Counted from the first letter of the stretch, positions 1,261-43,106 are shown. The stretch: DNA of 64,000 nucleotides from Raillietiella orientalis (GCA_036172245.1 JAYWIR010000020.1:3100001-3164000), one strand, 5' to 3'. Made by a program: numbers and translations. The notes: generated by a model not told the origin, from the sequence alone.

Positions 1261-1299
1261 CGCTTCCGGCAGGAGTTCCGAGAAGTAAGCCAGCCTTGC

Positions 1300-15775: not shown

Positions 15776-18700
15776 CTTCACGACCATTGGTTCCCCAATG
15801 GCACATTGTTCAAGTTTAACTTTTCTTCGTTGCTTTTTTATCTCTCTTTTATCAACAGGCTCAGCTAACAATTTCTACAAATCCGTTAGCCCCGCATTTC
15901 ATGATTACTCTTCATATCTTACCAGTAAGCTCTCATCTTTCAGTTCTTTCTCTGAACTATAGAAGGACTTATCAAAGGGCAGTCCTGTAATTTTGTGTGA
16001 GCCTGTCTTCATCAACAGCACCGTAAATTTGAACTGGGTAACAATTTCACCTGGTTTCTCGTACAAAACATGGAATGGCTCCACTAATTTGTGAGTCACA
16101 CACTCCACCAAACCCATTCTTGCTTTCTTTTGGTCAGAAAAATTCCGTAAATGGAAAGGCAACAACTGGAACCTCTTCTCTGTTTCAGAAAGAAAGATCC
16201 TACTAGCCTTCAGCTTTAGATTGTAGGCTACCTCAGTTTTCTTGTAGACAGTGGGACGGGGCTCCTGCTCTTTTGCCTGTGAGAAATAACTTTTGTTTTA
16301 AATGCCTACAGACAGTAGATGCATGTGGTACCTGTCCTTCTCCAGTGGACATGAGCACATCCATAGCATATACCTCATACATTTCAAATGTTTCTTTTTC
16401 TTGATCACGCCGTTGTTGCTCATTAGGGTTCTGAATGATAGTTTTCTTGCCATCAATATGGAACTGTTGTAACTGATGACTTAACATGCCTTCCATAGGA
16501 TGGCATCCAAAAGCTTCAGCAACTTTTTGTACAGCATCAGTTACTGCTGTATTCTGGTGTCTTCTGTTATCTCTTGATTTGGAATTCCAGAGATCCTTAC
16601 CTCATTTCCTGGCTGCACAAGTCTCAAAGCAATTTCAGATGCATAGTATGCTGCCAGCATAGCATCTGCTTTTGGTCCAGTGACCTTTTTAAACTTGGAA
16701 GCTCCAATCACAATTGTATGAGCAACCACTGCTATGAAGCCATCAATATGTGCACCTAAGTCACTAACAACAGAATCTTTATCCGTTACTCGATTTTATG
16801 TATCACTTACATTTTGACCACATCACCATCCTTTACAACAACATCTGTATCACTAGACAATGGGGAAAAATGACACACACAGTTGTTTATTGAGATGCAA
16901 GTAGGAAAGGCAATCCCTAACAAAAAAAAAAATCATGAATGCCTGGAAAAACTGAATATGATCAAGGACTTGTAACTTCTGGAAACTTTAATCAAATATC
17001 TTGAAATAAATGAATGAAATTAAAACAAAAAATTGAAGGAAAAAAAAAAAGACTTAAATGTCTAAAGACTCTAATATAACAAATTTGCTAACAGTACGAA
17101 CTAATCATTATGGACAGTGATTTCTAAACACTAAGGAATTCATAGAACTAAAAATAAAATATGAACTTTAAATTAATAAAATGAGAACAGAATACTACTT
17201 CTATTATGCAATGAATTCAGCATTCACAAGAAACTTTTAAAATTAGATGGTATGCATATATATGCAACAAAACATCATCACTATAGATATCTTAAATCAA
17301 TACCACTAATTCCAAACAAGTGCATCAACTGTTGACGTTACATGCTGCAATATGCATTTAACAAAATGAGAATCCACTAACAGTGCTGGCAAAAATACTT
17401 CCCAAATCTATTTACTCTTACATAAGCAATAATTACTAACATATATACAAAAGGGTACATAATTTAACCTTTTATTGCACAAACTTGAACTTTTGATTCT
17501 CTAATCATGGTTTTCCACTGAAATTTGGGGAAGTAAATATCATGATTTACTTTTTATGTAAAAAACTTTGGCAATAACAGTTGCTAGTTAGAAAACCTGA
17601 ATGTTCAATTAAGTGTATCATATTTCCAACATTTCAAAGTTCAACTACGATCTTTTACACTAACAGCATGAAAAATTGATACACCCACTCAAACCTATGT
17701 TAATTAGAAATTACAACTTTGTGTTCAGAAGGCATCACATACTTCATCAATTACTTTCAACAGAATACTAGACATGAAACTTCCACTACAGAAAAGATTA
17801 GAATACCTGATGAAATACAAAGTACGGATGATAACTAATTAATGGATTTAGCATGTAGCCATTAAATTAATAAACACTGATAACATACTTACATCCTACA
17901 TACTAAAAATTAGAGCAAAGAAATCATTTATCTTTCAATAGTATGAATAACTGAATTCTTTCAGAAAAAAAAATCGAATTTTTTACTTCACAATTGATTT
18001 TTTCATAGATCTCATTATTAACGTTTACGTATAATACGAAAACAAAACATGGAAAATAACCAGACATACAATCAGTGGACAGATGAAGACCAGGGAAAAA
18101 ACAGCAAAGCCTAATTTCTAACTGGTTTGCCTCTGATGATAGCATTTATAGATGGACAAGTAAATAAATCTGAAACATGAACACCCTAGCTATTTAATAA
18201 ACCTCAGGGATCCTTCTTGCTTGCTTCAACATAGTTCTTTAAAATACACTAATAACCAACACTTCCGGAACATGGCTTATTTACATATTGCATAAAGAGT
18301 TCAACAATGAATTGTACAACTCTAGTTAAGGCTAATAATTTAAAACAAATTAAAGCAGATATAGCATAAAATTATTTGCATTAATTCATTAAGCTGTAAC
18401 ATCAATACATCATCACTAAAAAATGTGTATCAAGAACATAAAATCATAAAGTTTAAATCATTCAGCAAAGAAATTCTCAGCTGAAATTTGAAAGTTAAAT
18501 CAACAAAAAACAAAATCTATCATAATTCTTAATTTAAGCTATTGCTTAGTAGTTTAAATAAAGAATAATTACAATAGAAAGAAAGAATTATGATAGAATT
18601 TGTTTAGTAATTTAAACAGAAATTTGTGCTTAGTACACTCCTTTGCTTTTGTTTTTTTTAAATTTAATCTCTTCATGTTGATGCTAAAACAAAGTCTTGT

Positions 18701-19253
18701 TGTACTAAATGAGGTGCACTGTTTAAATTTCTAGCCTCACATTCCTAAGTTCCATAACATGTAATCCAACATCTATACTCTTTTACATGACCACATGCTT
18801 GTAGATGTTACTTTTATAACGTAATCTGAATAAATCAATTTATTATTTTAAATACCTTTCCTAAAATCTTTTTCCTTTTTAAAAATGGCATCCGTTTTCT
18901 CAATTATTAACCTGTCACCTTCCTCACACAATTCTCTGACAGAGGTTCCGGACTTACATTTTTCTATTAATTGTGTCAAAACACCTAAAACAAATAAAGG
19001 GTACATCCAACATGCAATAACCTCGATATTAAATCTAGAATAGTACAACCATAAAAAGTGTGGCCGTTTTTAACAGCCGAATTACAAATACGTACAAATA
19101 CAACAGGGAAATGAGGAATAATCACAAACTTTCAAATTCAGGATTTAACATAAATTCAGGAGTTTTGTTCTTACTATTGACAATAATTCCACATGCTTTG
19201 TATTTGGTGACAACAGCATCTTCAGCAATAGTTTTTTCATCCTTTTCTGCCAT
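15767..19253 (-). CDS. PA2G4: Proliferation-associated protein 2G4 (EBP1, M24-fold), ~386 aa
   Basis: Exons 19175-19253, 18856-18984, 16811-16916, 16601-16763, 16332-16553, 15923-16276, 15767-15874 (1161 nt, all GT-AG). Motifs: [91 protein letters not shown]. Confidence 0.95.
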
Positions 19254-20909
19254 TTTTTAAACCATTGATAACGCGCTTTTATTATGGCGCTTTCCGTCCA
19301 CACACATATGACGCAAACTTTAAAGTCAATTCTTTATACTGTAATTATAGAAGAAATTGTATTATCATTAAATACTTTTACTTGGAGAAAACACATATAT
19401 ATCTAGCACACATATTTAATAAACACAAGAAAATATAATATGTTGCGAAACTTCTTTGTAGCGAATAAGTATAAAAGAATACAGTAAATGCAATAAAAAA
19501 AAAATTCGAATGGTCAAAAATACCTAAAACTCCAAACTTGAAACCATCCTGACATACTCATACCTCTGTATGAGATTGAAAAGATAGTGCATTTGTTTTG
19601 TTTTAAGATTAATACCACTTATGAACGCAAATGAGCATGTATTTGAAAGATTTAGATATTGGAAGCATTATTCATTCTTTCAGCAACCTTCCTGAAAAAA
19701 GAATACATCAAAGATGACATCCTCTGTTTCTTTCTCAGAAATTGAGAAATCACTTATTGAGAATTTAAAAAAAACATGCAAATCTAGCGTATAGGTCTCA
19801 ATTCCAAATGTTCTTATTTTCTGCAAAGTATGATTACTAGTTCATAAAACTTTCTAGTTCTCCGGAACTATAATAGTTCAAGTATTCGACAAAAGCCAGA
19901 ATCTACAAACGGAATCAGACAAAAATCGAAAAAACGTCGAAAAATCAAGCTCTACGAGGTGAAAAACAGATCCTTAATATTCAGCTGTACCTTCGATTAT
20001 TGAAAACTGAGCTACTAATAACAAGATGTATATAAAACACGAAATTTGTGTCTATTTGAATACACATTATCTTTATTTTTTAGTTTGATAGTTGTCGATA
20101 TATCAATTTGTGATTCCATGTGACATAATGTACTTCAAAAACAATTATAATAGAAAAGATCTGTAGAGCGAACCTTTCTTTACTTAGCGAATTCAAAGCC
20201 GCCTTTTTTTTAATATAAATTCACTGAATAAAGTAGCACGTAATAATGAGAAACTGAAATGAATGAATTCTATAGGAAACTTAACTACAATTTCTAGAGA
20301 ATTTTATTGCATGTTTCACTAAATTTCGAATAATTATGAAATAGCTCAGCTGTATTATGAAATGTTGGAGCAGTATGTATAAAATTATTGAAACAATATT
20401 TAGAAATAGATGACATTACAGAATTAAATTTAAAATGAATGAATGGAAAGATAAAAAAATCCCAGAAACTAATCTCATACCAAAATCTAGGAAAAGTTTA
20501 GAGGATCTCCCAAATCTGAAGCAAGGGATGGAAAAATTATATAAAACTGATCTCACTTCATAATTTGAACCAAATACAAACTAAAAGAACTAAGACTTGA
20601 ATGTTTAAGGAGTTTTTATTTTTTTTATACTATCATTAAAGACTTTAATATTAAATTCTAATTAAGCAGTGCTTAATAAATTCATGCTAGAATTACAAAT
20701 AGCCACAAGAGAAGAACTTTTTTTGAAATTTTCCCCCATTTTACCTAATCACGCGATCTAACCTGGTTAACGACTATAGCGATTGCCTATGAACTTGTAG
20801 TCACTCAGTATTTCGTGCTTATCTTCTCCAATCTTACCTTCCAACTCGGTTACTTGGCTCTCTGTTCCTTCGTGTGTTGCCTTTTTCGACGAAACTCTCG
20901 CATATAAAC

Positions 20910-21003
20910 ATTATGCTTTCACTTGTTTCTCCCTCTCCTTACAGTTCCCTCGTGAAATTATGCTTTCACTTGTTTCTCCCTCTCCTTACAGTTCCCTCGT
21001 GAA
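20910..21003. repeat. Perfect 47-bp tandem duplication
   Basis: attatgctttcacttgtttctccctctccttacagttccctcgtgaa occurs at 20910-20956 and 20957-21003. Confidence 0.95.
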
Positions 21004-22984
21004 TACAGCTGTTTTGGACAACTGTTTTTGCCTAATTGGATTACTTCTGTAAACTCTACAACTCTACCACTTCTTACCATCCGTTTTTTTTAGATGTCAT
21101 TCACCTTCAATCATTAGCCAGATCTACGAATTTTTTGCTTTACAGTTTTTACCTAATTATTACATGTCTGCTGCTTTTCTTATTTATAATCATCTCTTAT
21201 TCGAAATATTATCATTATGCCATCAAGATTAGTTTCCATCCTCTCAACTAGGGCCCTTATTATACTACGTTTACCCAACCTATCTAACTGATTAAGCTTT
21301 GATCTTATCCCAGAAGAGACCTCTTTCATGCTATTATATGAATCAACTCTTCTTTCTCTGGTCCATTATTTTTTATTTATTCCTTTTTCTCTTCAGTTTC
21401 TTTTAAACATTGTTTTGTTGCCTTAATACTTAGCTTAAATTCCCTTTGACTTAGGTATTCTTCAGCATTCCTATCAATTAGTCTTGAAATCTCTCGTTTT
21501 AACTCGCTTTTTCTCTTTCAAGATCTTTCTCGGACGCTCTTTATTCTATACAGTCATTTCCATTTTATTTAAAAAATTATGAGAGTTTGATTTTCCCAAT
21601 CACGTGATTACTGTCAATTAGTATTTTTGTCTCTTCAAAAAAGGAAGTTTAGTTGCCTTGATCGTATACATGTGTTTTAGGTAGTAGACCCTATGCTTAT
21701 TTTTGGTTAGTTCAATATCTTTTCGAAAGCTTAGTCATAATTTATACGTTAAAATGGAGTATTTTCAATGAACTTCTAAAGAAAACTGGATCTCTCTGTG
21801 TCTGGGCAGTGGGTTGACATGGGCATTTGGTCTGACGAAAAAGGGTATCATTCTAGCGCGGGAAAAAAGTGAAAAAAGTGCATATTTTTTTTTTAAATAC
21901 AGAGAAGTGTTTGCATTCATAATTTATTTGTAATATACTAATTACATAGTATTTTTTACTCAGGATGCAATATCAGTGGTTTTAAGGAAATACGTGAACA
22001 GTGAGTAGTAGTAGCATTCAAGGAAAAAATGGTCGAGAAAAGTAACCAAAGGATTTTATTAGAGTGCAAATTTGAGCACTAAATGTAAATGTTTACTTTT
22101 CTCATGAAGTTGAAACGAGTTTTGTGCTGCAGAGCATAAGCAGTGAGAACTATATCGTAGTCGTAGCTTTATTTGATAAGAGTGTGAATACTCAGAAGTA
22201 GAAAGTATCTGAAAGATATGAATAGGAAAATAATATGTGACTTCAGTGACATTGAGGAAGATACATATGAAGCAATATTAAACACAGTTAAGCTCATTTT
22301 TGATGTTAGATCTTTTCCGTTTGACTGAAGTCAAGGAAAGTAGTCTTCAGGTAACTTGGTAGACTTGAGTTTGTTACACCTATAGATGTCAGTGTAATCT
22401 TTAATTTAGTTTCATTTGGCCGCTTCTCTTGCTAAAGATTTCAGAAAGGTATGTGAACTGTAACATGTTTATTAAAACAACTGAGACGGAACAATATTTG
22501 TGGCACAGTAAATTACCTAGTGCAAAGTTGCATAAGCAATTTGAAAACATGTGTTCATCAAGAATGAAAAGATGTGAAAATATTAAAATAGTCTGTTCTG
22601 TTCTTAATAGTCTTTTAAAGGTTAAGGTGAATGATGTGTATATTAGGAAAGGAAAGTTTTTGATAACTTTCATTTTATTGAAAGTACAGTGCAGTGCATT
22701 ACATCACCTGTAGACCTGTATTTTTTAAGTTAATAATAATTGCAAAGCAAAGAACAATATTTGTTTAAAGGTAAAATAATAAGACATCCTTACTAGTCAG
22801 CAGGATTGGATATAAATGGCTTTGTGTGTGTCCCTGTCTAGAAGGCAAGAAGCTTCAATTCTTATACTTGTGATATGTGATAATAAAGTGGCTAAGCTAT
22901 TAACAAATGAAGAAGCTTTATATCCAAACGAGACATTTGATAATTGTGAAAGTCATCACTGTCAACTTATAAATTAAACTGATC

Positions 22985-23795
22985 ACCAGCCATAGCAAAA
23001 TCAAGCAGCGTGCGATTTTTTTTTTTCCTCATAATAATATCAGAACTATGCTCTAGAAGGGCTATAGCAATTTGTTCATGCCCTTCATTAGAAGCAATCT
23101 GAAGAGTTCTACCATATTCATACCTACTCACATTCTTTAGAATCAATGTCAGTGCTGAATTTTAAAAGAAGCTCGATAATTTCTTTTTGAGCAACAATGT
23201 GGAGTGGTGTTAGGTCAGTTTTAACTTTGCAATTAACATCTGTGTTGTATTCCAACAGTGCCTCAATAACTCCCACATATAGTTCACATTTTTAAGTAGC
23301 AGCATGTAGCATTGTTATACCATTTTTAGTTTGAGTATTTACATTAGCTCCTGGACTCAAAAGCAACTTGGCAGTTTCTCCCTTAATATTAACATTAGGA
23401 TCTTTATCAAGAAAAATACAAAAAAATCCTCTATCCTTGTCTAAAGCAATAATACGCGATAGCATTCTTCCATGTTAATCCCTAGCATCAACATCAACAC
23501 CATGTTGTAAAAGAACTTCAACAATTTCTCTGCATTCCTTCTTAACAGCAATATTCAATGGTTCAGGATTATCTTCTACATTAGCATTACCAGTTAAAAG
23601 TAGCTTGGATATTTCTATATCGGCATTCTCAGCAGCCTAAAGTGGAGTTTTTCCAGTTTTATATTGAGCACCTACATCAGCTCCATGGCGTATCAATAGC
23701 TTAGCTACTTACGCCTATTTGGTTTCGGTTTCAAGAACATGTAAAGGCAAACCTTTTCCAGATGTTGGGTTGTATATACGAAGAGTTGTATAACA
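22985..23795 (-). pseudogene. Wolbachia/phage WO-like ankyrin-repeat gene fragment (pseudogenised nuclear insert)
   Basis: Minus strand, intronless, with stops and frameshifts: VAKLLIRHGADVGAQYKTGKTPL, IVEVLLQHGVDVDARD, DPNVNIKGETAKLLLSPGANVNTQTKNGITMLHAA, ALLEYNTDVNCKVKTDLTPLH. The ankyrin call is clear; Wolbachia origin is inferred from recalled similarity and from adjacency to argD and repA fragments. Confidence 0.75.
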
Positions 23796-23824
23796 TACGA
23801 ACAGCAGTACCGTATTTTAAGACC

Positions 23825-24588
23825 TCAACTGTGATTTACCAGCCAAAGGAGTCTTAAGCTCTATTTCTATTAGTAAACCCTCTCCACGAACTTATGAAAT
23901 TATCTTTGGAAATTCTTAAGCCAAAGGTAACAGTTTTTCTCTTAGATACTAACGAATCTTAATATGATCAAGAAAACTTTTTAACGTTACATTCGGAACT
24001 GCATTACAAAGGCCGTAGCAAGTGGACTACCAATATATGCTGATGCCTGAGTTCCTGCAGTGATTGCAAACGCTATATAATCTTTTAGTAAACATGCATC
24101 CATGGCAAATCCGTTACCCATTGCCTTTGCACAAATTAGCATGTCAGGTTCGATTTTTATATTTTGATAATGGAATAAAGAACCGATGAGCCCACATCTG
24201 CATTGCACTTCATCAAAGCAGAAGATCAAGTCTTAAGTCTCTGTTATCTCTCTTGCTTTCGAAGTTACTCCACATTCAGTGTACACACTCCAGCACATCA
24301 ACGTCATTCCTTGGAACTTTATGAAGTCTACAAATGAATGGAGTGAAACAGCGTGATTTCCCATTTCGTCCAGCAGAAATCGCAGGGCAGCACTGCGGTC
24401 ATTAAATCCTTTTTCTATTGGAATGTTGCGGTTACGCTTTGCTTGTCCCCTCTACGTGGAAATAACGGCAAATAGATGCAACTGCAGATTCTGTTGCTTC
24501 AAGCCTGCTAAGGCAAAAAAAAAAAAAAAAATCCGCATAAGTTAAGTGCTGCTGTTAAACACTCAGCAAGCCATTCTTGGTCTGTATC
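23825..24588 (-). pseudogene. argD: Bacterial (Wolbachia-like) acetylornithine aminotransferase pseudogene, 5'-truncated
   Basis: Collinear class-III PLP aminotransferase motifs across stops and frameshifts: SRLEATESAV, QAKRNRNI, AISAG, KVPRND, FCFDEVQC, EPDMLICAKAMGNGF, GSPLA, YLREKLL, VRGEGLLIEIEL. Closely resembles Wolbachia ArgD as recalled. Confidence 0.85.
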
Positions 24589-25600
24589 AATTGAGCGCGA
24601 GGTCAAGAAGCAGACCTTTTCCTGTTTCTCCTATTGTAGCTACTGTTTAAGGAAGACCGACAGGAATTTTTGCCTTGACACTGAACCAGTTTAGCCATTT
24701 ACTTTCCAACCCAGAATTTGCAGTGCTAGTTTCATAATGATTGTTCTTCAGTTGCTTTTAGCAAAATGAAAAAACTTTATCTTTTCCCAAACACCATCTC
24801 TAGTATCACAAATTTTTGGTTTTATCTTGCGGAATTTCTAGAACAGAAAGCGATGCAACTCCAAGTTCCAAAAGGCTTTTTCCAGTATTTTCGAGGTATT
24901 TATTACTTGCTTCATCATTATCCGGCCATATAATGATATGTTTGCCCTGTAAGCAGTCAGTTTTTTCAGGAGACGTTCGGGCCGATCGTTGTAGTTGTAG
25001 CTGTAGTAATTTCTTCCTCTATTAGCGCGTCTGCTCATTTGTCTCCTTCTACTAAGACAGCTTTATAGGATTTTAAGATATCTGGAATGTTATACAGAGA
25101 CCTCGTTCCTTTTGGTGCAATAAGTCTGGATCTTTTTGCGTCAAATAGTTTACACTCTTTTTTTCCTTAAGGGGAGTCATAGAGGTAAACCTTAGGGATG
25201 AACTGATCGTTTTCATCGTAGTAATTCCAGCTGTAAGTAGCAATTTCATCAAGCTTTTGATCAGTTTTTTGCGCTCCTGGACATTTTTTTACCACATCCA
25301 AGCCAGCCACTCACTTATAAAAGCCATCACTTCATAAAAGTCTGTTTGCACCTTTTCCCTGTGCACTAGCCTCCCCATATAGCAATAACATCACCTTTTT
25401 CTCCGGTTGCTAAGTCCTGCCGGACTTCTAGCTTTTCCACCAGTTAATGCTACCTACTTTCTAAGAGTACCGCTTACTTGGAATTAAGCGATGCTCTTAG
25501 GCTGTGTCCTTTGCTACCATCAACGTCACCTATTCAAAATTCGTCCCCATAAAAAGTACCTTTGGGAGATGGGTGAGAAAGGCAGGATGTTTATTTTGAT
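24589..25600 (-). pseudogene. repA: Phage WO RepA-like (TOPRIM primase + AAA) pseudogene fragment
   Basis: PKGTFYGDEF*IGDVDG, DLATGEKGDV, SWNYYDEND, RSLYNIPDILKSYKAVLVEGDK*ADALIE (TOPRIM Glu), IIIWPDNDE (DxD), LLELGVASLSVL, then Walker-A-like GETGKGLLLDLAL. Truncated where it joins argD. Confidence 0.8.
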
Positions 25601-25769
25601 GATGGTCGTGCTTTAACATCGTATGACACATGCATAAATTCACTTACAAATTGCCTTGATTGTATTCATCTGATTTACGAAAACTGTTCAGTTCTGTCTA
25701 ACCAAAGTTTTGAATTCTGAGAGTTTAAAAAAAAACTTTATTTTTTTAGAGAGAAAAAAAAAATCATGA

Positions 25770-27300
25770 CCTTCTAAGGCATTGTTTCCATGTCCTACAA
25801 TATTTACTAAGAAAATTTGGTCCCGAAGTCTTTCATTAAGATGATCTAGAAACTCCTTAGGAAACTCTGATCCTTAAGTTATAAATCACCTGAGCGCTCC
25901 GCTGGCCAAGATGTGGAAGATATAGAACAAGACCTTTTCTGCAACTTTTTTTCCATGCATAGATGAGTACGATAAAAGTGAGTGCAGTCTTTCGAGTTTT
26001 GCTAATCAGGGCACTCCTAACTCTGAAAACGATATGCGACAGTGAAAGAAAAAAACTGTTGCTTTGAGGATGAAGCGATAACTACGCGTTGATGCTGAAC
26101 AAATCATTCTGGAGCTACCAAAGGAATGGCAGGGTTTGTGTGAACAGCTGAAACAAGATACAGCATCGCTGCAAGTTGCACATAACAACATATCACGAGC
26201 TGCTTTACACATCTCAAGAAAATGCCATCCAACTGTGCACCTATTAATGGAAAAAGGCGCGAGAATAACTGAACCCCCCCCCTCCTTCCTGAAATTTGGC
26301 GAATTCATATACAGGGAAGTAAAAGTATGAAAATCATAAATGGTGAAGAAAAAGCAAAAAATGGTAACAGGTGTGAAGTAATTTTTGGGGCTCGTGGAAT
26401 CAGCAAGACTATTTAAACGGGTACTACTTGTTTTATTTCTTAGGCCACTTGAAACTTTCGATGAGCCCACACCACTATGTGTGGATTTTGAAGAAGGACT
26501 CCTTGCTGTGCGGCACTGGGAAAAGGATTCAATCAGCATGCTCACTTGGAATGAGGCAAGGGATCTCGTTTGCCTTCTTGGCGGACCTGCAGCAAAGTCC
26601 GATAAAGCATACAGTTAAAGAAACTAATATGGAGATCTATCTGAGATCCCTAAATACCGTCTCATTTTTATCGACAGTGTAATTCTTGCGACCTTTTTGT
26701 GTCTTTCATGGGCAAGGATGCAACCTGAGGCTTCTCCTGATAGGTCGTGTGAAAAGGATATAAAACAGCCGCTAACGGTACACGTGCTCAAGAAATGATG
26801 GCTTGGCTCAGTCAGTTTCAACAGACCAGAAATAAAGATATCATTACAGTTGGGATATTTGTTCAGTAGCTGGATGCTCTTAATCGTCCAATATGGCTGC
26901 CTCGACGCGAAGGAACCAAAACTGCAGGTGGAATTCCTCGGATTACTGGTGAAGCAATCAGCATGGTTGGAATCAAGCAAAATGATGGTACAGAAGTGCA
27001 TTCATTTATCTGTTAGGCCCATTAACTCCTGGGGAAACTCTGCTAAAGATTAAAGTGAATGCCTTAGTGCGGCTGAGGGACCTCGCTTAGGTAAACTACT
27101 TACAAAAATCCAGAACCAACTTCGACCTTAGAAACCTTAGAAATGGAGGAATCTGACTGATTTCAACATTGCGAAATCACAGAGTGATTTAATACCTAGA
27201 GATACAGTAGTAAATCACAATGCCTATGAAACTTAGAGGTTATGAATGCAGTCCCACTAAAAGGCCCCACTACGGGTAGTATCTATGTAAACGCAGTTTA
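25770..27300 (+). pseudogene. Endogenous viral element: orthomyxovirus-like polymerase subunit PB2 (central part, decayed)
   Basis: Ordered motifs across frameshifts match recalled influenza PB2: SYNIY*ENLVPK (AYMLERELVRK), FLKFGEFIYR (FSFGGFTFKR), VRHWE (IRVHE), DSVILA (EAIIVA), WLSQFQQ (LLRHFQK), ISMVGIK (MSMRGVR), KIKVNALVRLRD..GKLL (VSIDRFLRIRDQRGNVLL). No introns. Confidence 0.65.
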
Positions 27301-27579
27301 CCGTCACGGAAGGTCCATATTCAAAGAGCAATATCCATCAAGAAATTGGGATAAATGAAAGGCAAAACAGAAGGCACTTAAGATGTCTGGAGAGAAATAG
27401 GTAGTTCTTTGATTCGAAGTACTTTGGAGTCAGCACACAATATCCATCCACCTGATAATTCTGAAAGGGGACTCTTTCCTGTAAACTGAACTCCATTGCA
27501 CATTTAAACAATTTGGAATTCAGGGCAGCGGTGTGTAGCTGATCGGTATAAAGTGAGATTGCTGCGTTTATTATTCCAA

Positions 27580-28150
27580 ATGAGCAACACCAAAATGTAC
27601 CGAAATGGATTGGTGCACTTTATAAAACTATTTTTGGAGGATGTTTTCTTACATGAACAAATCCCAAAGGAATCAAACGTTATCGATTAACAACCTGAAC
27701 GAATGCCTCTCTCATTTGTTGCTTGGTGGCAATTTCATCAGTGATATGGATGGAAGTGTTGAACAAGAAACGGATTTCTCAAGATGAAAACGTAGATAAA
27801 GCTAGACTTTCATCCACTTCAACTGGAACCGATACAAACCTAGTTACAGGATTACTTGCTGAACACGAAGGAGCCACCAAGTAGCTTGGCAAAGAAAATG
27901 TGATACCAGTTTACGGTTCATTTACAAAGAAGCCCTCAAACGAAGCCCGGTAGAAAGCGTTCCATCCGTTAGTGTACGGATAATTTGGCTACTCAGGGAT
28001 AAATGGGATTTCACAAAACAAAAGTACCAAGAGGCAGATATGGATTGCTATGCGTTGAAACGTGAGAGTGCTTTCATACTGGATGGGCAACCATGGAAAT
28101 ACAGGGTGCAAAAGGAAGTGTGGTGATACTAATTTAGAAACCGGGCACTT
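27580..28150 (+). mobile_element. piggyBac-like transposase remnant
   Basis: VHFIKLFLEDVFLHEQIPKESN (cf. FxLFFxxxxxxxIxxETN) and a degenerate KxHP motif; highly decayed. Confidence 0.35.
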
Positions 28151-28349
28151 TGGTTAATGGACCGCGTAGGTGAAGACGGAAGTCGTGCTGTCATCGTTCC
28201 TGACCACTTCCACGCTTGTATCACGTGATCGCGTTTGACATTCAGTCCCGAGGTGCCAGCTAACGTTTCTGCGGTTGTTTTTCTGCATCCTGTCGAGGGG
28301 TCTGCTCACTTGCTGTCCTGGGTCATCAGAAACCCAATCTGTCTGCTAT

Positions 28350-29490
28350 TTGGACAATACTAAGAAATTTGTATTCTTCAGTTGTTTCAAGTAGCACTCT
28401 AAAGATGCGGATACTTGAAGTTGACTGTTTACTTACAACTTCCGTGTCATTAACATAAACAGTATTATCTACTACGTTTGATCTTGATAGTTTCTTCTCT
28501 TGATAAGTTATCTTTTGCGGCGGTATATAAGAATAACAATTTAATGCTCGAAAAGAAATATTGGGTTATAATAATACTAGTACTCCCTTTTCACCTACCT
28601 CGTTTAGCACTTCATTTAGGGTTCGATGTTCACAAATGAAACCAAACATAGGAACAGCGTACAGAGTTAGCAATGATCTGAGATTTTTTTTCCGTTGAAA
28701 CTGAGCAAAGCAATAAGTGAGTTTTTCACTTATCTACGGTTAAGTATGATTTATCAGAGGAACAATCTGGAATAATCACGCTTACAAAGTTTGTACTAAT
28801 AATCACATAATAAACTCCTGTTGTCACTTTATCCCAAGTGATGTTTGAAAATTGCTAATTGTTGAGATCCATTCTATAACTTACAAATATTAGCTTTTAT
28901 CTCTGTGGGGTAGTAACGTTTTTTGTAGGTATCAGGAAAAACATCACTATTACAGAGGTCACCCATTATTGGTTCATCATATTCTTCATCGTGGTCACTT
29001 GCGATTTCTAGCCTACTGCTACAGAAAGAATCCATTACATGGAGATCAAACTCATCTTCATAGTTCTTACAGATCATAAAGTAGCATTCTCTCAAACTTA
29101 AGTCTCTCTCAAACTTAACAAAAGTCTCAAGGTGCCCAACTTCTATGTAATACTGACTGATTGAAGCATAGGAAGTATTCCACTTTAGCAAGTCAGTAGC
29201 TATTTTTTGGCCTATAATTAGGGGATTGTGCTTTCGCAAAGATGGTAAGTTCATACGTCCTTGAACAAACATTTGAGATCTTCCCGATTTTTTTTATCAA
29301 GTTCGTCCTCCGAGTAGTTCATTGCTGTATAGTTTGAATCCTGTACCTGTGAGGATAAGGTAGCCTTTTTGATTTTAAACATCACCTCCGCGTATTGGAT
29401 GAGGGAGATCTCATGTAGCACGCAATCAACCGAAGGTTCTAATACATTTAGCCCATTTTTTTCAACGCCATTTGTAATCAACGTGAGATA
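28350..29490 (-). pseudogene. Decayed intronless ORF, probable RNA-virus polymerase fragment (Bunyavirales L-like, tentative)
   Basis: ORFs 29251-29481 and 28874-29272 join by one frameshift and continue as interrupted protein-like frames (WDKVTTGVYYVIISTNFVSVIIPDCSS). No TE or cellular motifs recognised; viral family assignment is weak. Confidence 0.35.
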
Positions 29491-30579
29491 AGTCTGTGGT
29501 TCAGCCGAAATTGGGGTTTACCTACGCTAATACCATTCAGCCCTGATTTTGGTACACACGAAATGAGGAAGGTACGTATTTGTGCTACTGTGTTTTGACC
29601 ATGTTAGCTGACAAACGAACATTCAGGATGAAAATAAAAGTTTGCAGTACCTGCAATACTGTTTGCTGGTTTTAAACCGTACTCAATTCTTTTCATGGAT
29701 AAATTGACTGGATCGGCCTTAGAGGAAAAGTAAAGAATAATCCGACCAGGTTCGTGACCGTGTATGGCTTTATTTTGAAGTCATTGGCAAATCTTTCTTT
29801 TCACTGGCGGGCGACTTATAAATAAGTGTATACTATTCGGTAGTAAGACGTGAAACTGACCTTGAAAACCATCATTTTCAGAGAGATCACCTTGCTTGAG
29901 CACTGCCTGCACAGTCCTTTCCCTGAAATGGAGCAGACTTTCGTTCCGTACAATGTTTTGAACACGGAGGGTAAAAAGTCTTTCTTTGTACTTGATCGAA
30001 GCAGGAAATATGCTTCAGAAACTTGTGATTCGTTATGAAGGGAGTGAAAGAAGTACTTTTGGTCATATTTGTTATTTTGCAGCAGAGATGGCTTCAGAAG
30101 ATTTTGATTTCACACCAATCGTGCTACTCCAGCGGCAGTTTGTCTCTTACTTTGAACTACTAACAGACCGATTAACCGAATAGTAATTAAACGAAGACAC
30201 GGAAGTGTAGATAAGCGTTTCGCTCTTTTCTTGAGTTGAGACGTCATCATATTTCCCAAATTCCTAATCTTTAAGCAGTTGTCCATTTTGCACATCTTGA
30301 GAACACTGGTTAAAGGTAATGCTCATCTGCCTACCAGAAAGAGGATTATAGGATTCGGAAAGTCCTTGAGCAGAGACAGGCATTTCCACTCTACTTCCCC
30401 AAAATCCCCTGCCAGCATGAGAACGCATCATGCCTAAAGACAAATGTGTTGTATCTAGTGTGGATTAAAATGAGTCAGCAAAGTTCTTTTTGATAAAAAA
30501 AAAAAACAACCTTTTTCATTAAAAAAAAATACCGAGCAGTTTTTGTGATTTTGGTGAACATATATATAATACAGAAGTC

Positions 30580-30960
30580 AAACTTTCAAATGCGAATCCT
30601 CACCCAATTTGGGGAACAATGATAACAACATGACACTTGTCTTTTGACAGATAAGACTAATTTGATGGATACCAAAGCAGTCTCATTTTTGACTGGTGTT
30701 GTGATACACTGGCATGCAAAACATTGACGAAATGGAAGTTACATTGGTTAGCTCAGCATTTTCAACTGCCTTTATTCAGCAAGCTAGTTCTTCCGCCAGT
30801 AAAGCTGCCCTCTTGCATTTTCCCCAATAATAGCTTATTACTACTTCTGTGCTACTTTTCTTGCTTCCACGGTCCTTTTTACCTTCTCTTCCTCTGTGTC
30901 CATAATACCTCACAAATTGTAGGCTCCCAGTGTCGATCACAGTCTTGAAAGATCATAAAA
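30580..30960 (-). mobile_element. Retroviral-type (Gypsy-like) integrase H2C2 fragment
   Basis: YGHRGRE...TEVVISYYWGK resembles the GHxGxxKT...YYWP integrase zinc-binding region. Confidence 0.35.
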
Positions 30961-31138
30961 GATGAATACATGATGTTATGTTAATGCATACGGACTAACA
31001 TACACATTTATTTTAGCATACATATTCATTAATACAATTAATAATATGCATTAATATATCGTTTCGATAATTGGCCTGTTCATGCCAATTCTGCCGTGAA
31101 TATCTATTCCATGAAAATTGCAGCCAACAGGTGTCATC

Positions 31139-32360
31139 CTATCGGGTAAAGCCCATTCTGTTATCTTGACTAATCTTCTTTCTTACGGTGTTAATTAGTT
31201 CCTCTGAAGGTGTTGATAACCCTGTCGATAAAGTCGATAACTGTGAGCTTTCTGGCATAGGTGATTCAACGGACGCATCCTGAACTTTAGAATCAGCTGA
31301 GTGCATGAAAAAAGCGTAGTGCTCTTTTCTTCCTCCTGTGTTCCAGCCAACTATTTTTTGCTCTGCTTTTTTTCTAAGGAGTTCTTCATCTTCCTCTTCT
31401 TGTCTTTGTACTCCGTAAAATTCATCTAGGTGATCGATGTCTTCTCCTGCAAATTTAAACAAATTACTTTTCGTAGCCTCATCTATCATTTGCCGTAGTA
31501 ACAGGTCTCTCCAAGCTGCTACTTCCAGTCTTTGTCGCTGAATCATTTCCTACCAATGCCGTAAATCTTTTATCATAACTTCCCAACTCCTCTTCCGTGT
31601 GCGACGAAAATTCCTCGCAACCTCGTAAGTGTTGAGAGAAACTCCATAGTTCGTTCCATTCTCAAATGATATTTTTTTGAAGTATTCTCATCACTTGGCA
31701 CATACATTCCCTCATGCGAAATGGTAATTTTTCCTTCTTTTACCACCGCGATCTTTATTTTTCCAGTATGGACCCTTCTCCCCATTTCTCCGGCACCTCA
31801 TCCGTGGCTGCAGACATCTCAAATGTGACATCACGATGGTCTGGTCGATGAACTAACTCGAGTAATCTTCATCCACAGTCCCTAAGAGTAATCCTGCTGC
31901 CCCAGTCGGAGTGGTCAAAATGTCAGCGATCGACTGTTTAGGTGCTCTAATCCTTGGCCCCTTTCTCCCATTTTAGCATGCATACCTCTCATTTTTAGCA
32001 TACGAACACGTCCCCACTGTCACTTATCACTTCAAACTCGGATGGAACCAACGGAGAATTTACTTTGACCAACAGGCCATCGTTGCATGATGACGAAAAG
32101 TCGCAAAGAAAGATGGAAAGCATTTGAGACAGCATTTTTGGTATATGAGAAAAAAATTCATCTCGAGAAGATCTGTAATACACTATTGGACCAAACTCTG
32201 GAATTACCTCTCATGTGCTGATAACGATTTCCTCAGCATCCCCTGTTGGACAGGAAAAATGCTTATCGTTGTGTTCCTCTCCATGAATAATCTGATACCA
32301 CTGAATCACTAGGAAGCTTCTTCCTCATGCTGTTGTAAGCTTCCTCGCTGCTTTCTGAAG
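31139..32360 (-). pseudogene. Decayed C-terminal part of a large intronless protein, probably viral (EVE candidate)
   Basis: ORFs 31995-32183, 31573-31785 and 31139-31546 chain by stops and frameshifts into ~400 codons, end in TAG, and are followed by an AT-rich UTR-like tract (30960-31070). The 5' side is cut at the hairpin element at 32361. Confidence 0.4.
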
Positions 32361-32425
32361 TTAACCAAAAGCGCCACGTTCACTTTGAGCGTGGTGCTTT
32401 TATTATTATTATCATTATTATTCCT
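32361..32425. repeat. 16-bp stem-loop plus (TAT)n tract, Helentron/HINE-like terminus
   Basis: aaaagcgccacgttca-ctt-tgagcgtggtgctttt (32367-32401, two G.T pairs), preceded by TTAACC and followed by tattattattatcattattatt. Confidence 0.45.
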
Positions 32426-32699
32426 ACTCTTTCGAACTGAATTCCTCAGTCAAACATTTATTGTAACACCGGCACCTTATGATGTGCTACTTTTGATAGT
32501 CAGAAGACTTGTTTGAATAAACTGAACTGCGTTGCTTCACATTGAATCTAGAGAACAAATTGAAGTGATTTTGCATAAAATCGACCTTTCTTATTAGTGT
32601 CTGCTAAAAAACATTACAACTGCAAATAATAACCCTATGCTACCAAACGGTCAGCGACTGTTCGTTGCCGTAAATCGCTAACTTTATGTCTACCGTTTA

Positions 32700-33691
32700 A
32701 TCGTGCTACTCTCGTACCTCTTATGTAGCAGAATCACACAAGGAGAGGTTTATTGGTATGCCAATAAACAGTGACCTACGACGATTCTTAGCAAATACCA
32801 ATTTTGAGAAGATCATCTGCCTATTCACTCACCGAAACTTTTGGACTCACAAGCGTTTCTTGACACACGACCGACCGGCAACTTCTGCATGCCTTCGCAA
32901 TCAAAAATTTGAAAAGAAATGGCTTTGCTTTGATAAGAAAACAAAAGTATAAATGTTCATTCATCAGATGTTTCGCTACGACGATTCTTTTTGCAGAGCT
33001 GTTGGTTTCTTCGATGATCCTCTTGACAAGCTCTTCTGTGAAAAATAACTGGAAACATTCTATTGGTTCCACAATGTTAGATGCAATCTGTGTGTGGTCC
33101 AGTGACCCTGGGCGATACTGTGAAATCAATCCTTTTTGGAATCCTTTTGCTATCCGTTCTATCACCTTCTCCGAAAGAGTTTTCACTCAAACATTCCAAT
33201 TCTTCGTCACCTGTTCACAAGAATTTCGCCATCACTCGCACTTTCTTCAGATGCACTATCAGTTGAATTGTCATCGACTGGGTATAAATGAAGTTCTTGA
33301 CTTTCACTCGATTCGAAATTTACACAGCCCCTTTCCTTTTTATCAGCAAATCGCTTTGCAACGAACTGATGGCAATTAGAGAGCAACTTTTATAGAAAGG
33401 TCGACGTCCTGTTCGAAAACAAACTTTAAGTCACGGCTGCCGCTTTACACTGTGTATCACTTGCAGAGCAGAGATCTGTGACTGGAAGCTGTGAAGGATC
33501 ACGGCGCTTGCTTTCACTCACTTTGCATGCCGACGAACGGGTTGCACATTTTTGGTCTGCAGTGTAAAGAATGCATAACTGTGGTCCATCATTCTAACGC
33601 ATCAACACAATGCACGTCCCCTCAGCGGCGCCAGTCGATCCGTGGTGCCATTTTGAATGTCCCCTCAGAGGAGCCAGTGAAGTGCAAATGG
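32700..33691 (-). mobile_element. 5' portion of a piggyBac DNA transposon with terminus and TTAA target site
   Basis: ORF 32821-33186 has EPIECFQLFFTEELVKRIIEETN (typical piggyBac/PGBD N-terminal motif). Minus-strand end reads TTAA|CCATTTGC (TTAA at 33692-33695), with subterminal direct repeats GTCCCCTCAG(C/A)GG(C/A)GCCAGT at ~33616 and ~33659. Confidence 0.75.
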
Positions 33692-35580
33692 TTAAAGTCC
33701 GCTTCCTATGTCTCAGATCTCCATTTTCAAAATGCATTCAGTCTAACAAACAAAGAGCTTTACAATATGAATGCAAACTATAAATTGACCAACCAGCCTT
33801 CATGAAGACGAATTTCGTTCTCCCTTCTATGAGAAAAAGGAGCTCCAGTGATGCAAGAACCGTTCATTGCTGGCAAGGTGCTTTCTTCAAACCTCGACTC
33901 TGAGGTGGCAGTGAGTTTCTTTCCAGTAACTCAACGAAAATACCGCATTCACAAGCAAGGGATCGTTTTACATATGATCTGAGAATTCAAAGGTGCATTT
34001 TGCTGAAGCTTCATGACATTTGAACATTTTCTCTCATTATTCGAGAGAACTAGGACCTATTTCCTTCGATGCCCGAGAAATTCCAATATGTGAAAATAAC
34101 CGTCACGTTCGGGAAACTGCCGCACATGCAGCCACAAATCACAGCAAGTTCCGGATGAGATTTTGCGACAAATTGCTGTTTTTTTATTTGAAAGCTGGAA
34201 AAACTGTGATACTTATATGCAGAAAATGAATTAAATTTTTAGATGGTGAGAAAGGGATATTCTGGATTACTGTTATTAGGTGGAGTAAATCCAAAGTAGG
34301 AATCTTGGGAACCAATACTTGAATACTCGTACATCAATGAAACTGCGACCTGCTTTATTGAAATTAACTCCTTCTAATGATGAACAAGATCACTTGCATT
34401 TTAAAATCGTACCATAAATCAGCAGTGAATTCCATCCGAAACAGCCTACATCTATCCAGTGTACTTGTGTTCAAAACACTTCATCAGTTGAAGTCTTCCG
34501 AAGAACTATCACATGGTTTCATATTTCAGAACCATTTCGTTGAAGCCTTTCTTCCACCGTTTCCAAAATAGTTAACAATTTAAATTCTTTCATAAAAATC
34601 TGACTATATAGTCGGACAATCAGAAATACCTGGAAAGGGTGGCAAAATTGACGGAAACGCCAAGTTGAAGGAGATTCAGTATGTTGGAAATTGAAGTCGT
34701 AGGCTAGCAAAGTATTCTCTTCTTTTGGCTTAGCCTTTGGGTGTGATCAATTCATGATTCTCCTAAGGCGGTCAGCGTAAGGTATAAACATTTTACTCCG
34801 GGTTGCGTCCTTAATGAATACCAAGTTTCGAACGTAACTTTGCTTTTACCTCAATTTATTCTTCTCTCCTTTAGCTTTATTCAAAGTAGGAAGTTTAGGG
34901 AAATTTTAAATTGGTCTTACGATAACTTTCTATTCCACTCTTGCAGCACGAACAAATTCAGAATATCTATAGAAGTGAAGCAGCATCCAGATTCTGTTCA
35001 CCATTCTCAGTCTTATAAAGGAATGGTTTGAAGCAATCATGTAGACTAATTTGAGAGGAAAAAATGGCAGACAATTCGAAAGATCCTTGGAGTTGACAAA
35101 AATGGTCAATATTGAAAGATTGTTCTATTTCAACTCTCGTCTTTATTAAACGGTCACACAAAAAACTTGGAATTTGGATTTTACTGCAAGAATAATGCAA
35201 GAAAATGCAAATTGAGTTCCATTCGGGTCATCCATCATTATAACTCATGTAAACTGATACAGTCGAATATTATCTAGTATGAAAAGAATGTATTGAAGAA
35301 AAGTAATTTTGAAGATACTTTTTCGAATGTTTGGAGACAATTTTTAGCAGAATAATTTAACAAGAGGGCTCAAAATAAGCCTTTTCGTGGAACGAAAAGT
35401 CTTATTTTGTTTTAAAATGAAAAACATTAGTTGTTGAAAAACATAGTTTGTCTGAAAATGAGAAAACATTTTTTCCATGTCATGTATTTTGAAAGTTTGC
35501 ATATCTTCCAAAGAGAGAATGCAAAACAGCTTTGTAAAACACTAAAACCGGTAGTCCTTAGGGAAGTTCACCTGGTCATT

Positions 35581-35813
35581 GTGAAATTCCTTCAACTAGA
35601 AAGCAGAGTGCAATGAAATGAAAGAAAAAAAAAAAAAAAACATACACGCTTGATCACCTTTTACGGGAACTACCTTATTTTTTTTAAAAAAATAGCGAGT
35701 AGCTTGAATGACGTCGTTTGTGATTCGCAAAAATAGTCGGTCACCAAGGGACTGAAATGCTGGAACGTGAAATTCCTTCAACTAGAAAGCAGAGTGCAAT
35801 GGAATGAAAAGAA
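35581..35813. repeat. ~45-bp direct repeat, 186 bp apart
   Basis: gtgaaattccttcaactagaaagcagagtgcaatg(a/g)aatgaaa starts at 35581 and 35767. Confidence 0.9.
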
Positions 35814-43027: not shown

Positions 43028-43106
43028 CAACATTAAGTAAAAATTATTTACTTAATGTTGTAATACAAAGTTTTTCCAACTTTGTATTACAACATTAAGT
43101 AAATAA
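43028..43106. repeat. Perfect 29-bp inverted repeat with an overlapping 14-bp inverted repeat
   Basis: ttatttacttaatgttgtaatacaaagtt (43044-43072), loop tttcc, exact reverse complement (43078-43106). Also caacattaagtaaa (43028-43041) pairs with 43047-43060. Confidence 0.95.

What the first reader, a model, noticed from the sequence alone, without database searches (positions are those of the whole stretch)
20700..35300. ~15-kb mosaic of captured virus, endosymbiont, phage and transposon fragments next to the PA2G4/MyD88 pair: candidate piRNA-cluster-type archive
Seen: back-to-back, 0.4-1.5 kb, truncated, intronless pseudogenised pieces with little spacer and no recognisable host gene: ankyrin, argD, repA, PB2-like, piggyBac-like, unassigned viral-like ORFs, integrase, hairpin element and a piggyBac end. 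Most read on the minus strand. Established: arthropod piRNA clusters accumulate TE fragments and non-retroviral EVEs. Inference: this locus captured RNA-virus cDNA, Wolbachia chromosome and Wolbachia phage DNA together and may yield small RNAs against all of them. Its start within ~2 kb of the PA2G4 ATG raises the possibility of divergent transcription on the + strand, antisense to most fragments.
Basis: partly seen in the sequence, partly recalled or inferred. Interest (0 to 1): 0.85.

Follow-up and report, generated by a model that had tools for sequence, protein, structure and literature searches.

The report
Decayed Wolbachia and phage WO insert
An arthropod chromosome carries an old, thoroughly broken 11-kb block of DNA from the bacterium Wolbachia and its phage WO just upstream of the PA2G4 gene; this is a known kind of genomic fossil, and no RNA-virus piece or sign of a small-RNA archive was found.

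Summary
Window 20,791-31,996 holds about 16 truncated, stop-ridden gene pieces with little spacer, flanked by host genes: MyD88 and PA2G4 on the left, a YjeF_N gene on the right. Every piece I could identify in this block comes from Wolbachia or its prophage WO. They are recombinase, uvrD, ankyrin, argD, primase/helicase (the "repA"), sigma-70, AAA_24, gp9/gp10-like genes, an alanine symporter and baseplate J/W. No RNA-virus ("PB2-like") piece exists. The stretch where it would lie belongs to a 5.8-kb block colinear with a modern WO replication module, so much of the "mosaic" and its mixed strands is native phage gene order. One short piggyBac-like transposase start lies at 32.8-33.4 kb. No canonical piggyBac end was found, and no notable hairpin element lies inside the finding's coordinates. 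The argD piece nests inside crown Wolbachia on a very long branch, and codon-position patterns show neutral decay. This is an old nuclear Wolbachia transfer (NUWT), a known kind. The piRNA-cluster idea could not be tested because no sequencing runs were listed. Low transposon content argues against it, as does the near absence of piRNA-length identity to sampled Wolbachia. Interest is low to moderate.

The parts
14746..15361 (+). Host MyD88 exons (Death and TIR domains); left-flank landmark, not part of the insert
   Evidence: Pfam Death E=1.2e-9 and TIR_2 E=2.1e-6
15900..19253 (-). Host PA2G4 (EBP1) gene, several exons; the putative ATG at 19253 lies 1.5 kb from the insert
   Evidence: PDB PA2G4 chains: E=6e-28 for 16236-16601(-) and E=4e-9 for 18851-19069(-). 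The ATG is read from the translation. Exon 1 alone gave no PDB hit.
20791..20907 (-). Scrap of WO large serine recombinase, N terminus (aa 6-45 of 579)
   Evidence: tblastn with WOVitA1 gwv_1156, 55% identity; weak Pfam Resolvase E=0.005
20910..21003 (.). Perfect 47-bp x 2 tandem duplication between the two recombinase scraps
   Evidence: TRF 100% matches; the repeat finder family D3
21192..21517 (-). Scrap of WO recombinase C terminus (aa 470-517) plus adjoining Wolbachia ORF-like sequence
   Evidence: tblastn with gwv_1156; L039 ORF hits at 21192-21335 and 21410-21517; blastn 73%
21562..21742 (-). Scrap of Wolbachia UvrD/Rep helicase gene (about aa 408-463 of 648)
   Evidence: blastn 73% to G002; the ORF there is UvrD-helicase in Pfam; tblastn
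21742..21956 (.). Short Wolbachia-like non-coding or repeat matches
   Evidence: the genome search rows at query 2243-2321 and 2364-2457, 75-80%; L040 blastn 75.5%, with no ORF of at least 60 aa over the match
22985..23885 (-). Ankyrin-repeat pseudogene of WO type; 5 in-frame stops in 205 codons
   Evidence: Pfam Ank/Ank_2; 74% nt to a WOVitB ankyrin gene; 56% aa to gwv_1092 aa 407-612; stops
23820..24545 (-). argD (acetylornithine aminotransferase) pseudogene, aa 83-346 of 392, with stops, frameshifts and an internal deletion
   Evidence: Aminotran_3 E=3e-16; 30 loci found, nearly all Wolbachia or Rickettsiales; tree
24593..25587 (-). WO primase/helicase (RepA-like, Toprim+AAA_25) pseudogene, N-terminal half only
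   Evidence: tblastn with gwv_1128 aa 37-341, gp5 aa 1-221 and the L035 ORF; Pfam of the wStri ORF
25663..26210 (+). WO intergenic region plus sigma-70 factor pseudogene (25947-26210); this is where a 'PB2-like' piece would have to lie
   Evidence: blastn colinear with L035 5902-7426; tblastn with the L035 sigma-70 ORF; Pfam Sigma70_r2 for that ORF
26397..27113 (+). WO AAA_24 pseudogene (4 in-frame stops)
   Evidence: tblastn with gwv_1124 aa 14-243, 42%; L035 ORF; phrog_32843; stops
27147..27533 (+). WO gwv_1126-like pseudogene (8 in-frame stops)
27893..28056 (+). Weak scrap resembling the C terminus of the WO primase/helicase
   Evidence: relaxed tblastn, E=3.7e-4
28195..29209 (-). WO gp9-like pseudogene (phrog_25990), nearly full length in 4 pieces
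   Evidence: PHROGs E=1.8e-26 for the best piece; tblastn with gp9 aa 7-351
29257..30613 (-). WO gp10-like pseudogene (phrog_21102), then the upstream spacer and first ~18 codons of the next WO gene (on +)
30662..30862 (+). Scrap of Wolbachia sodium:alanine symporter gene (about aa 310-380 of 452)
   Evidence: blastn 79% to G002; Pfam Na_Ala_symp for the ORF there; tblastn
31060..31528 (-). WO baseplate J pseudogene, aa 43-193 of ~261
   Evidence: the best protein among 5.8 billion is 62% identical, a Wolbachia baseplate J
31696..31996 (-). WO baseplate W pseudogene
32824..33389 (-). Short 5' fragment of a piggyBac-like transposase gene (acidic N terminus plus first ~40 residues of the DDE domain); not bacterial
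   Evidence: Pfam DDE_Tnp_1_7 E=2e-4, below cut-off; PDB 6x67 E=3e-4; 5 of 7 representative hits carry the same domain start; no hit among longer proteins
33390..35300 (.). Unassigned sequence inside the finding's coordinates
   Evidence: No Pfam, PHROGs or NCBIfam hit; no Wolbachia match

Best explanation
Window 20,791-31,996 is an old nuclear Wolbachia transfer (NUWT). A stretch of Wolbachia chromosome carrying a prophage WO entered the host germ-line genome 1.5 kb upstream of PA2G4. Since then it has decayed neutrally through substitutions, stops, frameshifts, deletions and rearrangements, leaving about 16 recognisable gene scraps. Shown: the Wolbachia/WO origin of each scrap; the colinearity of 24.8-30.6 kb with a modern WO replication module; pseudogenisation; the long neutral branch; confinement to this 11 kb. 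Inferred: that most scraps came in with one complex insertion rather than many; that the block has no function today; that it is tens of millions of years old or more (uncalibrated). A separate, short piggyBac-like transposase fragment lies next to it.
For: (1) Origin. All 12 matching records and all 15, out of 50,697 phage records searched, are Wolbachia phage WO. Twelve of 65 WOVitA1 proteins hit the window, all within 20791-31939. argD, gp5, gp6, gp9, gp10, gp25 and gp26 hit.
(2) Confinement. Five Wolbachia genomes gave 76 DNA matches, all within 21279-31996, against 0 in 1-20000 and 3 marginal ones in 35000-50000. I ran 887 Wolbachia ORFs against the whole window with tblastn, and all hits fell in 21192-30772.
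(3) Colinearity. Window 24815-30608 aligns in order and orientation with wStri prophage L035 5131-13558 at 67-74% nt. The genes are primase(-), sigma-70(+), AAA_24(+), 1126-like(+), gp9-like(-) and gp10-like(-).
(4) Donor. The argD piece falls inside a 17-row crown-Wolbachia clade (support 99/95). Its terminal branch is 0.43 against a median of 0.057.
(5) Neutral decay. Differences at codon positions 1/2/3 are 0.27-0.30/0.23/0.49 for window versus WO baseplate J, but 0.09/0.07/0.24 for WO versus WO. argD shows the same pattern. There are 53 in-frame stops in 2,220 homologous codons. The best protein match to the J piece among 5.8 billion is 62%.
(6) Host setting. MyD88 and PA2G4 lie to the left and a YjeF_N gene to the right on the same sequence. 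The YjeF_N ORF's nearest Atlas clusters are mostly arthropod.
(7) Literature. NUWTs as neutrally evolving, fragmenting genomic fossils are described in PMC12693587 (passages read).
Against: No reads could be laid, so physical contiguity rests on the assembly alone (one search listed no runs). The scraps are not in one native order. uvrD, argD and the symporter lie far apart in the five Wolbachia genomes searched, the recombinase scraps are in reversed order, and baseplate J/W is separated from the recombinase. A single insertion therefore needs later rearrangement, or concatenation of pieces at entry. The long branch makes the exact placement of argD within Wolbachia unsure (warning). About 2.5 kb inside the block, including 21956-22985, and all of 33.4-35.3 kb stay unassigned. 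Lack of function is inferred from decay and was not measured.
Confidence: 0.85

Rival explanations
1. One reading: the locus is a piRNA-cluster-type archive that trapped virus, endosymbiont, phage and transposon DNA. It is transcribed, perhaps divergently from the PA2G4 promoter, into small-RNA precursors directed against these invaders.
For: Foreign, non-coding scraps are packed together, and 11 of 16 mapped pieces read on the minus strand. The block begins 1.5 kb from the PA2G4 start. That arthropod piRNA clusters hold viral fragments is established knowledge, recalled here and not checked in a paper.
Against: No RNA-virus piece is present: 0 of 138 ORFs. I found only one possible transposon scrap, and no reverse-transcriptase, integrase or gag domain in 19.3-40.7 kb. 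The strand mix of the largest chunk is simply native WO gene order. The block sits between housekeeping genes. Only 13 of about 11,180 24-mers (two sites) are shared exactly with 563 kb of Wolbachia/WO reference loci, so piRNA-length guides would not match sampled modern relatives. Bacterial and phage transcripts stay inside the bacterium, out of reach of PIWI proteins (established knowledge, inference).
Confidence: 0.08
2. The block grew by several independent Wolbachia DNA insertions into one permissive spot, at different times, rather than by one complex insertion.
For: There are at least eight donor segments with breakpoints inside genes. Their order matches no searched Wolbachia genome. 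uvrD, argD and the symporter are tens to hundreds of kb apart in G002-G004.
Against: Decay is similar across the pieces. Identity to the nearest Wolbachia is 73-79% for the three chromosomal scraps, and stops are spread over nearly all pieces. Wolbachia genomes are heavily rearranged between strains, so a lost donor could have had this order. In wMel, argD lies about 5 kb from a WO prophage end.
Confidence: 0.25
3. Assembly artefact: reads from a living Wolbachia were wrongly joined into a host scaffold.
For: No read-level check was possible.
Against: The pieces are pseudogenes: 53 stops in 2,220 codons. Nucleotide identity to any Wolbachia found is at most 79%, and protein identity to the best match is at most 62%. 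The pieces are 0.1-1.4 kb scraps, and a live symbiont would give intact genes.
Confidence: 0.03
4. One or more pieces were domesticated and now serve the host, as a coding gene or as a regulatory element for PA2G4.
For: The block is close to the PA2G4 start. Baseplate J keeps an open 136-codon frame.
Against: Every other piece over 100 codons has in-frame stops. The J frame is truncated at both ends and shows relaxed codon-position differences. No intact ORF over 139 aa lies in a homologous frame.
Confidence: 0.03

Closest known systems
Nuclear Wolbachia transfers (NUWTs) in arthropods and filarial nematodes
   Same: Wolbachia-derived DNA sits in a host chromosome. It is non-functional, evolves neutrally and is broken up by deletions. 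It serves as a fossil of past infection (PMC12693587, passages read; PMC3998919 on Glossina seen only as a search listing and abstract start).
   Different: This block is far more diverged (about 65-79% nt) than the recent, near-identical inserts that I recall as the usual arthropod cases. It is made largely of prophage WO genes.
Prophage WO of Wolbachia (e.g. WOVitA1 KX522565, WO of wKue AB036666, the wStri prophage)
   Same: The replication-module gene order and orientation are the same: primase/helicase, sigma-70, AAA_24, 1126-like, gp9-like, gp10-like. Recombinase and baseplate W/J pieces are also present.
   Different: It is not a prophage. No head, tail or terminase genes hit: 0 of those WOVitA1 proteins matched. 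All genes are broken, and the block lies in a eukaryotic chromosome.
Arthropod piRNA clusters holding endogenous viral elements
   Same: Foreign, non-coding sequence scraps are packed at one locus.
   Different: There are no RNA-virus pieces and almost no transposon content. The setting is gene-dense. No small-RNA data could be obtained.

Membership tests
Nuclear Wolbachia transfer (NUWT) | Sequence derived from Wolbachia, placed within Wolbachia by phylogeny | tested here: met
   argD nests inside a crown-Wolbachia clade, support 99/95, with a long-branch caveat. All phage-collection matches are WO records.
Nuclear Wolbachia transfer (NUWT) | Lies in the host nuclear chromosome between host genes | tested here: inconclusive
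   Host MyD88/PA2G4 and YjeF_N genes flank it on the same sequence. No reads were available to confirm the joins.
Nuclear Wolbachia transfer (NUWT) | Not from a living bacterium: pseudogenised, neutrally evolving | tested here: met
   53 stops in 2,220 codons; relaxed codon-position pattern; terminal branch 0.43.
piRNA cluster | Dense 24-31-nt small RNAs with 1U bias or ping-pong signature | not testable with these tools
   No sequencing run was listed for the stretch.
piRNA cluster | Rich in transposon fragments | tested here: not met
   One short piggyBac-like scrap only. No RVT, rve, gag or other transposase domain turned up among the ORFs scanned in 19.8-47 kb.
piRNA cluster | Fragments mostly antisense to the direction of precursor transcription | tested here: inconclusive
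   11 of 16 pieces are on the minus strand, but the orientation of six of them is native WO order. The direction of transcription is unknown.
Endogenous non-retroviral RNA-virus element (e.g. orthomyxovirus PB2) | Protein-level similarity to an RNA-virus gene | tested here: not met
   0 of 138 ORFs hit such a family at E<=0.05. The candidate interval is colinear with WO.
Prophage WO (intact) | Complete modules: recombinase, replication, head, baseplate, tail | tested here: not met
   Only 12 of 65 WOVitA1 proteins hit. No terminase, portal, capsid, sheath, tube or tape-measure gene matched.
piggyBac-type transposon | DDE_Tnp_1_7 transposase domain | tested here: inconclusive
   Only profile positions 2-41 of 349 match, below the cut-off. 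Supported by PDB 6x67 at E=3e-4 and by 5 of 7 representative hits carrying the same domain start.
piggyBac-type transposon | Terminal inverted repeats at TTAA | tested here: not met
   The recalled canonical end motif was not found near the fragment, and no inverted-repeat pair flanks it. Divergent ends cannot be excluded.

The most novel reading that the evidence does not exclude
The decayed Wolbachia/WO block is nevertheless transcribed, for instance divergently from the PA2G4 promoter, and processed into piRNAs or siRNAs. That would make it a case of bacterial and phage DNA co-opted into a small-RNA source locus. A second, less speculative reading: because the block keeps the modern WO replication-module order, finding it at the same site in related hosts would give a dated minimum age for that phage architecture.
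Probability: 0.08. Interest if true: 0.6.

Novelty: new member of a known kind. Interest (0 to 1): 0.25.

Why it matters
The block records a past Wolbachia infection, with its phage WO, in this arthropod lineage. It also shows that a WO replication module with today's gene order already existed when the transfer happened. If the insert is shared at the same site by related species, it could date both the infection and the phage architecture. It is a warning for annotation and contamination screens too, since these pieces are too decayed for simple similarity filters. It does not by itself reveal a new mechanism.

Tried and rejected
I used ORF pieces instead and shorter read-through stretches.
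- No whole genome is held for this window, so genome-wide background density could not be measured. The window's own flanks served as the control.
- The scan holds no earlier notes on this genome.
- The look-up of sequencing runs: none was listed and no RNA holder was listed. Read laying was therefore not used, and neither expression, small RNAs nor contiguity could be examined.
- 'PB2-like' was rejected.
- The recalled canonical piggyBac end motif was absent.
- No significant repeats lie within the window apart from a 47-bp duplication and a 54-nt pair at 35.6/35.8 kb.
- Rfam gave only one sub-threshold snoRNA-like match, and there are no tRNAs.
- The piggyBac fragment found nothing among longer proteins.
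- NCBIfam on 77 ORFs from the unassigned stretches gave nothing credible: one MobA hit at 16.7 bits against a cut-off of 151.85.
- Relaxed tblastn of the unassigned stretches gave only marginal hits. One was a folD-like 37-aa match at 38156-38251 (E=0.013), which I do not accept.
- Pfam on long read-through frames missed PA2G4, and its first exon gave no PDB hit.
- The ORF at 37339-37839(-) has no homologues.
- Two literature searches found no paper treating Wolbachia nuclear inserts as piRNA sources: 'Wolbachia' + 'lateral gene transfer' + 'piRNA cluster' and a six-term search. Only listings and abstract starts were seen, so this is not proof of absence.
- In one search, ankyrin rows under 60 bits were dropped from the printout.
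- The argD tree left out L033 (no blastn match) and L034 (a Planctomycetia row).
Full report
SETTING. The window is eukaryotic and most likely arthropod. A Death+TIR pair (MyD88) lies at 14746-15361(+). PA2G4 exons run on the minus strand from about 15.9 to 19.25 kb. PDB PA2G4 chains match 16236-16601(-) at E=6e-28 and 18851-19069(-) at E=4e-9. The ATG as I read it is at 19253; exon 1 alone gave no PDB hit. A single-exon YjeF_N gene lies at 40762-41643(-), and its nearest Atlas clusters are mostly arthropod. No whole genome is held for the window, and there are no earlier notes on it.

WHAT IS IN THE REGION. I scanned 138 ORFs of at least 45 aa from 19.85-36.13 kb against Pfam. Only ankyrin repeats (23127-23636, minus strand) and Aminotran_3 (23990-24232, minus strand, E=3e-16) passed curated cut-offs. 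Weak hits pointed to a resolvase, Baseplate_J, AAA_24 and a piggyBac-type transposase start. None of the 138 ORFs hit an RNA-virus family at E<=0.05.

DNA comparison with 50,697 phage records returned only Wolbachia phage WO records: 12 of 12 and 15 of 15, at 65-76% identity. The matches covered an ankyrin gene, argD, the RepA-like gp5, WO 'hypothetical' genes and baseplate J/W. PHROGs added two WO families of unknown function over 28.1-29.8 kb. Their only phage-collection relatives are WO records.

I then ran tblastn with 65 WOVitA1 proteins, 43 proteins of WO-wKue and a wMel flank, and 887 ORFs from 36 Wolbachia loci. Together with a DNA search of five Wolbachia genomes, this gives the following map:
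- recombinase N-terminal scrap, 20791-20907(-)
- recombinase C-terminal scrap, 21192-21335(-), with adjoining sequence to 21517
- uvrD scrap, 21562-21742(-)
- short non-coding Wolbachia-like matches up to 21956
- ankyrin, 22985-23885(-)
- argD aa 83-346, 23820-24545(-)
- primase/helicase N-terminal half, 24593-25587(-)
- sigma-70, 25947-26210(+)
- AAA_24, 26397-27113(+)
- gwv_1126-like, 27147-27533(+)
- weak helicase C-terminal scrap, 27893-28056(+)
- gp9-like, 28195-29209(-)
- gp10-like, 29257-30428(-), with spacer and the first codons of the next WO gene to 30613
- sodium:alanine symporter scrap, 30662-30862(+)
- baseplate J aa 43-193, 31060-31528(-)
- baseplate W, 31696-31996(-)

By my sum of these segments, about 8.65 kb of the 11.2 kb is assignable.

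IS IT MORE THAN CHANCE? The same five Wolbachia genomes gave 76 matches to 19500-36500, all inside 21279-31996. They gave none to 1-20000 and three tiny marginal ones to 35000-50000. All hits of the 887 Wolbachia ORFs fell in 21192-30772. The cluster is real and sharply bounded. It ends near 32.0 kb, not 35.3 kb.

MOSAIC OR CHUNK? Window 24815-30608 aligns, in order and in one orientation, with a prophage of the Wolbachia of Laodelphax (L035 5131-13558) at 67-74% identity. Pfam names that region's ORFs as primase/helicase(-), sigma-70(+), AAA_24(+), an AAA_25 gene interrupted by a group II intron, two small ORFs(+), and two unknown ORFs(-). The window lacks about 2.9 kb of it (L035 7426-10321).

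Its strand pattern is the phage's own.

The remaining scraps (recombinase, uvrD, ankyrin, argD, symporter, baseplate) have breakpoints inside genes and are not in any order seen in the five genomes. In wMel, however, argD lies about 5 kb from a WO prophage end. I consider one complex insertion followed by erosion the most likely history. Several insertions into one spot remain possible.

DONOR AND AGE. A search with the argD piece found 30 loci. Nearly all are Wolbachia or unnamed Rickettsiales, with similar identity throughout. In a 29-row nucleotide tree, the window's argD falls inside a crown-Wolbachia clade of 17 rows (support 99/95), nearest to strains from Cantharis and 'wStur'. Its terminal branch is 0.43 substitutions per site against a median of 0.057. 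The tool warns that long branches are hard to place.

Codon-position differences show relaxed constraint. For baseplate J they are 0.27-0.30/0.23/0.49 for window versus WO, against 0.09/0.07/0.24 for WO versus WO. argD shows the same pattern, although part of that alignment is garbled by a frameshift.

Homologous frames hold 53 stops in 2,220 codons, and only the 123-codon J segment among the longer pieces is free of them. The best match to the J piece among 5.8 billion proteins is 62% identical, a Wolbachia baseplate J.

Taken together, roughly 0.2-0.4 neutral substitutions per site have accumulated. At insect neutral rates as I recall them, that means tens of millions of years or more. This is an order-of-magnitude inference without calibration. 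The decay also rules out contamination by a living symbiont.

THE REST OF THE FINDING. At 32824-33186(-), with an acidic ORF at 33210-33389(-), there is a short start of a piggyBac-type transposase:
- Pfam E=2e-4, below cut-off.
- PDB piggyBac transposase 6x67, E=3e-4.
- A full HMMER search found 7 hits, of which 5 carry the same domain start and 2 are repetitive proteins.
- A word-based search among longer proteins found nothing.

The canonical end motif (recalled) is absent. No inverted repeats flank the fragment. The only hairpin is an 18-nt-arm one at 35371-35409, outside the finding.

Sequence 33.4-35.3 kb and about 1 kb at 21956-22985 remain unassigned. No transposon or viral domain was found among ORFs of at least 40 aa in 36.0-40.77 kb, nor among the ORFs.

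THE piRNA-CLUSTER IDEA. It could not be tested directly, because no sequencing run was listed for the stretch. Indirect evidence is against it:
- Transposon content is minimal.
- There is no RNA-virus piece.
- The locus sits between housekeeping genes.
- The strand bias (11 of 16 pieces on the minus strand) is largely inherited from the phage.
- Only 13 of about 11,180 24-mers, at two sites (25789 and 28339), are shared exactly with 563 kb of Wolbachia/WO reference loci. Guides from this block would therefore not match sampled modern relatives.
- By established biology, bacterial and phage transcripts stay inside the bacterium.

I give it about 8%. Two literature searches turned up no paper describing Wolbachia nuclear inserts as piRNA sources, but I saw only listings and abstract starts.

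COMPARISON WITH WHAT IS KNOWN. Nuclear Wolbachia transfers are well documented in arthropods and filarial nematodes. They are described as neutrally evolving fossils that fragment with time and can outlast the infection (PMC12693587, passages read; the Glossina case PMC3998919 was seen only as a listing).

This locus meets the sequence-origin and decay criteria. The chromosomal-context criterion holds as assembled but is unconfirmed by reads. It is not an intact prophage: no head, tail or terminase gene hit. It is not an RNA-virus element. It fails the transposon-richness criterion of piRNA clusters.

VERDICT. This is a real but ordinary feature, an old and decayed Wolbachia/phage WO insert beside PA2G4. 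Its main value is as a datable fossil of a past infection and of WO gene order.

Noticed in passing
window 20910-21003: A perfect 47-bp x 2 tandem duplication lies between the two recombinase scraps. Its 100% identity means it is much younger than the decayed DNA around it.
   Followed up: partly
window 37339-37839 (-): A 167-aa open frame (P0007) in a stretch with few stops on both strands (37.2-38.2 kb). It has no Pfam hit and no homologue in the near-length protein search. It may be a host orphan exon or chance.
   Followed up: partly
window 1-8000 and 56000-61000: G+C is very high (0.55-0.62) at both ends of the window, against 0.30-0.41 in the middle. This gives long open frames on both strands (e.g. 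4585-5820 + and 4598-5794 -) with no Pfam family.
   Followed up: no
window 35371-35409: A near-perfect hairpin (18-nt arms, 94% complementary, 3-nt loop) just outside the finding. No family was assigned.
   Followed up: partly
window 40762-41643 (-) and 51435-51863 (+): Host genes to the right of the insert: a single-exon YjeF_N (NAD(P)H-hydrate epimerase) gene and a Peptidase_M1 N-terminal exon.
   Followed up: partly
L035 8368-9852 (Wolbachia of Laodelphax prophage): A group II intron reverse transcriptase/maturase interrupts the AAA_25 gene of the WO replication module in this strain. The corresponding stretch is absent from the window.
   Followed up: no
window 38156-38251 (-): A marginal 37-aa similarity to Wolbachia folD (E=0.013, 35% identity), seen with folD ORFs from several strains. 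folD lies a few genes from argD in wMel, but the hit is too weak to accept.
   Followed up: partly
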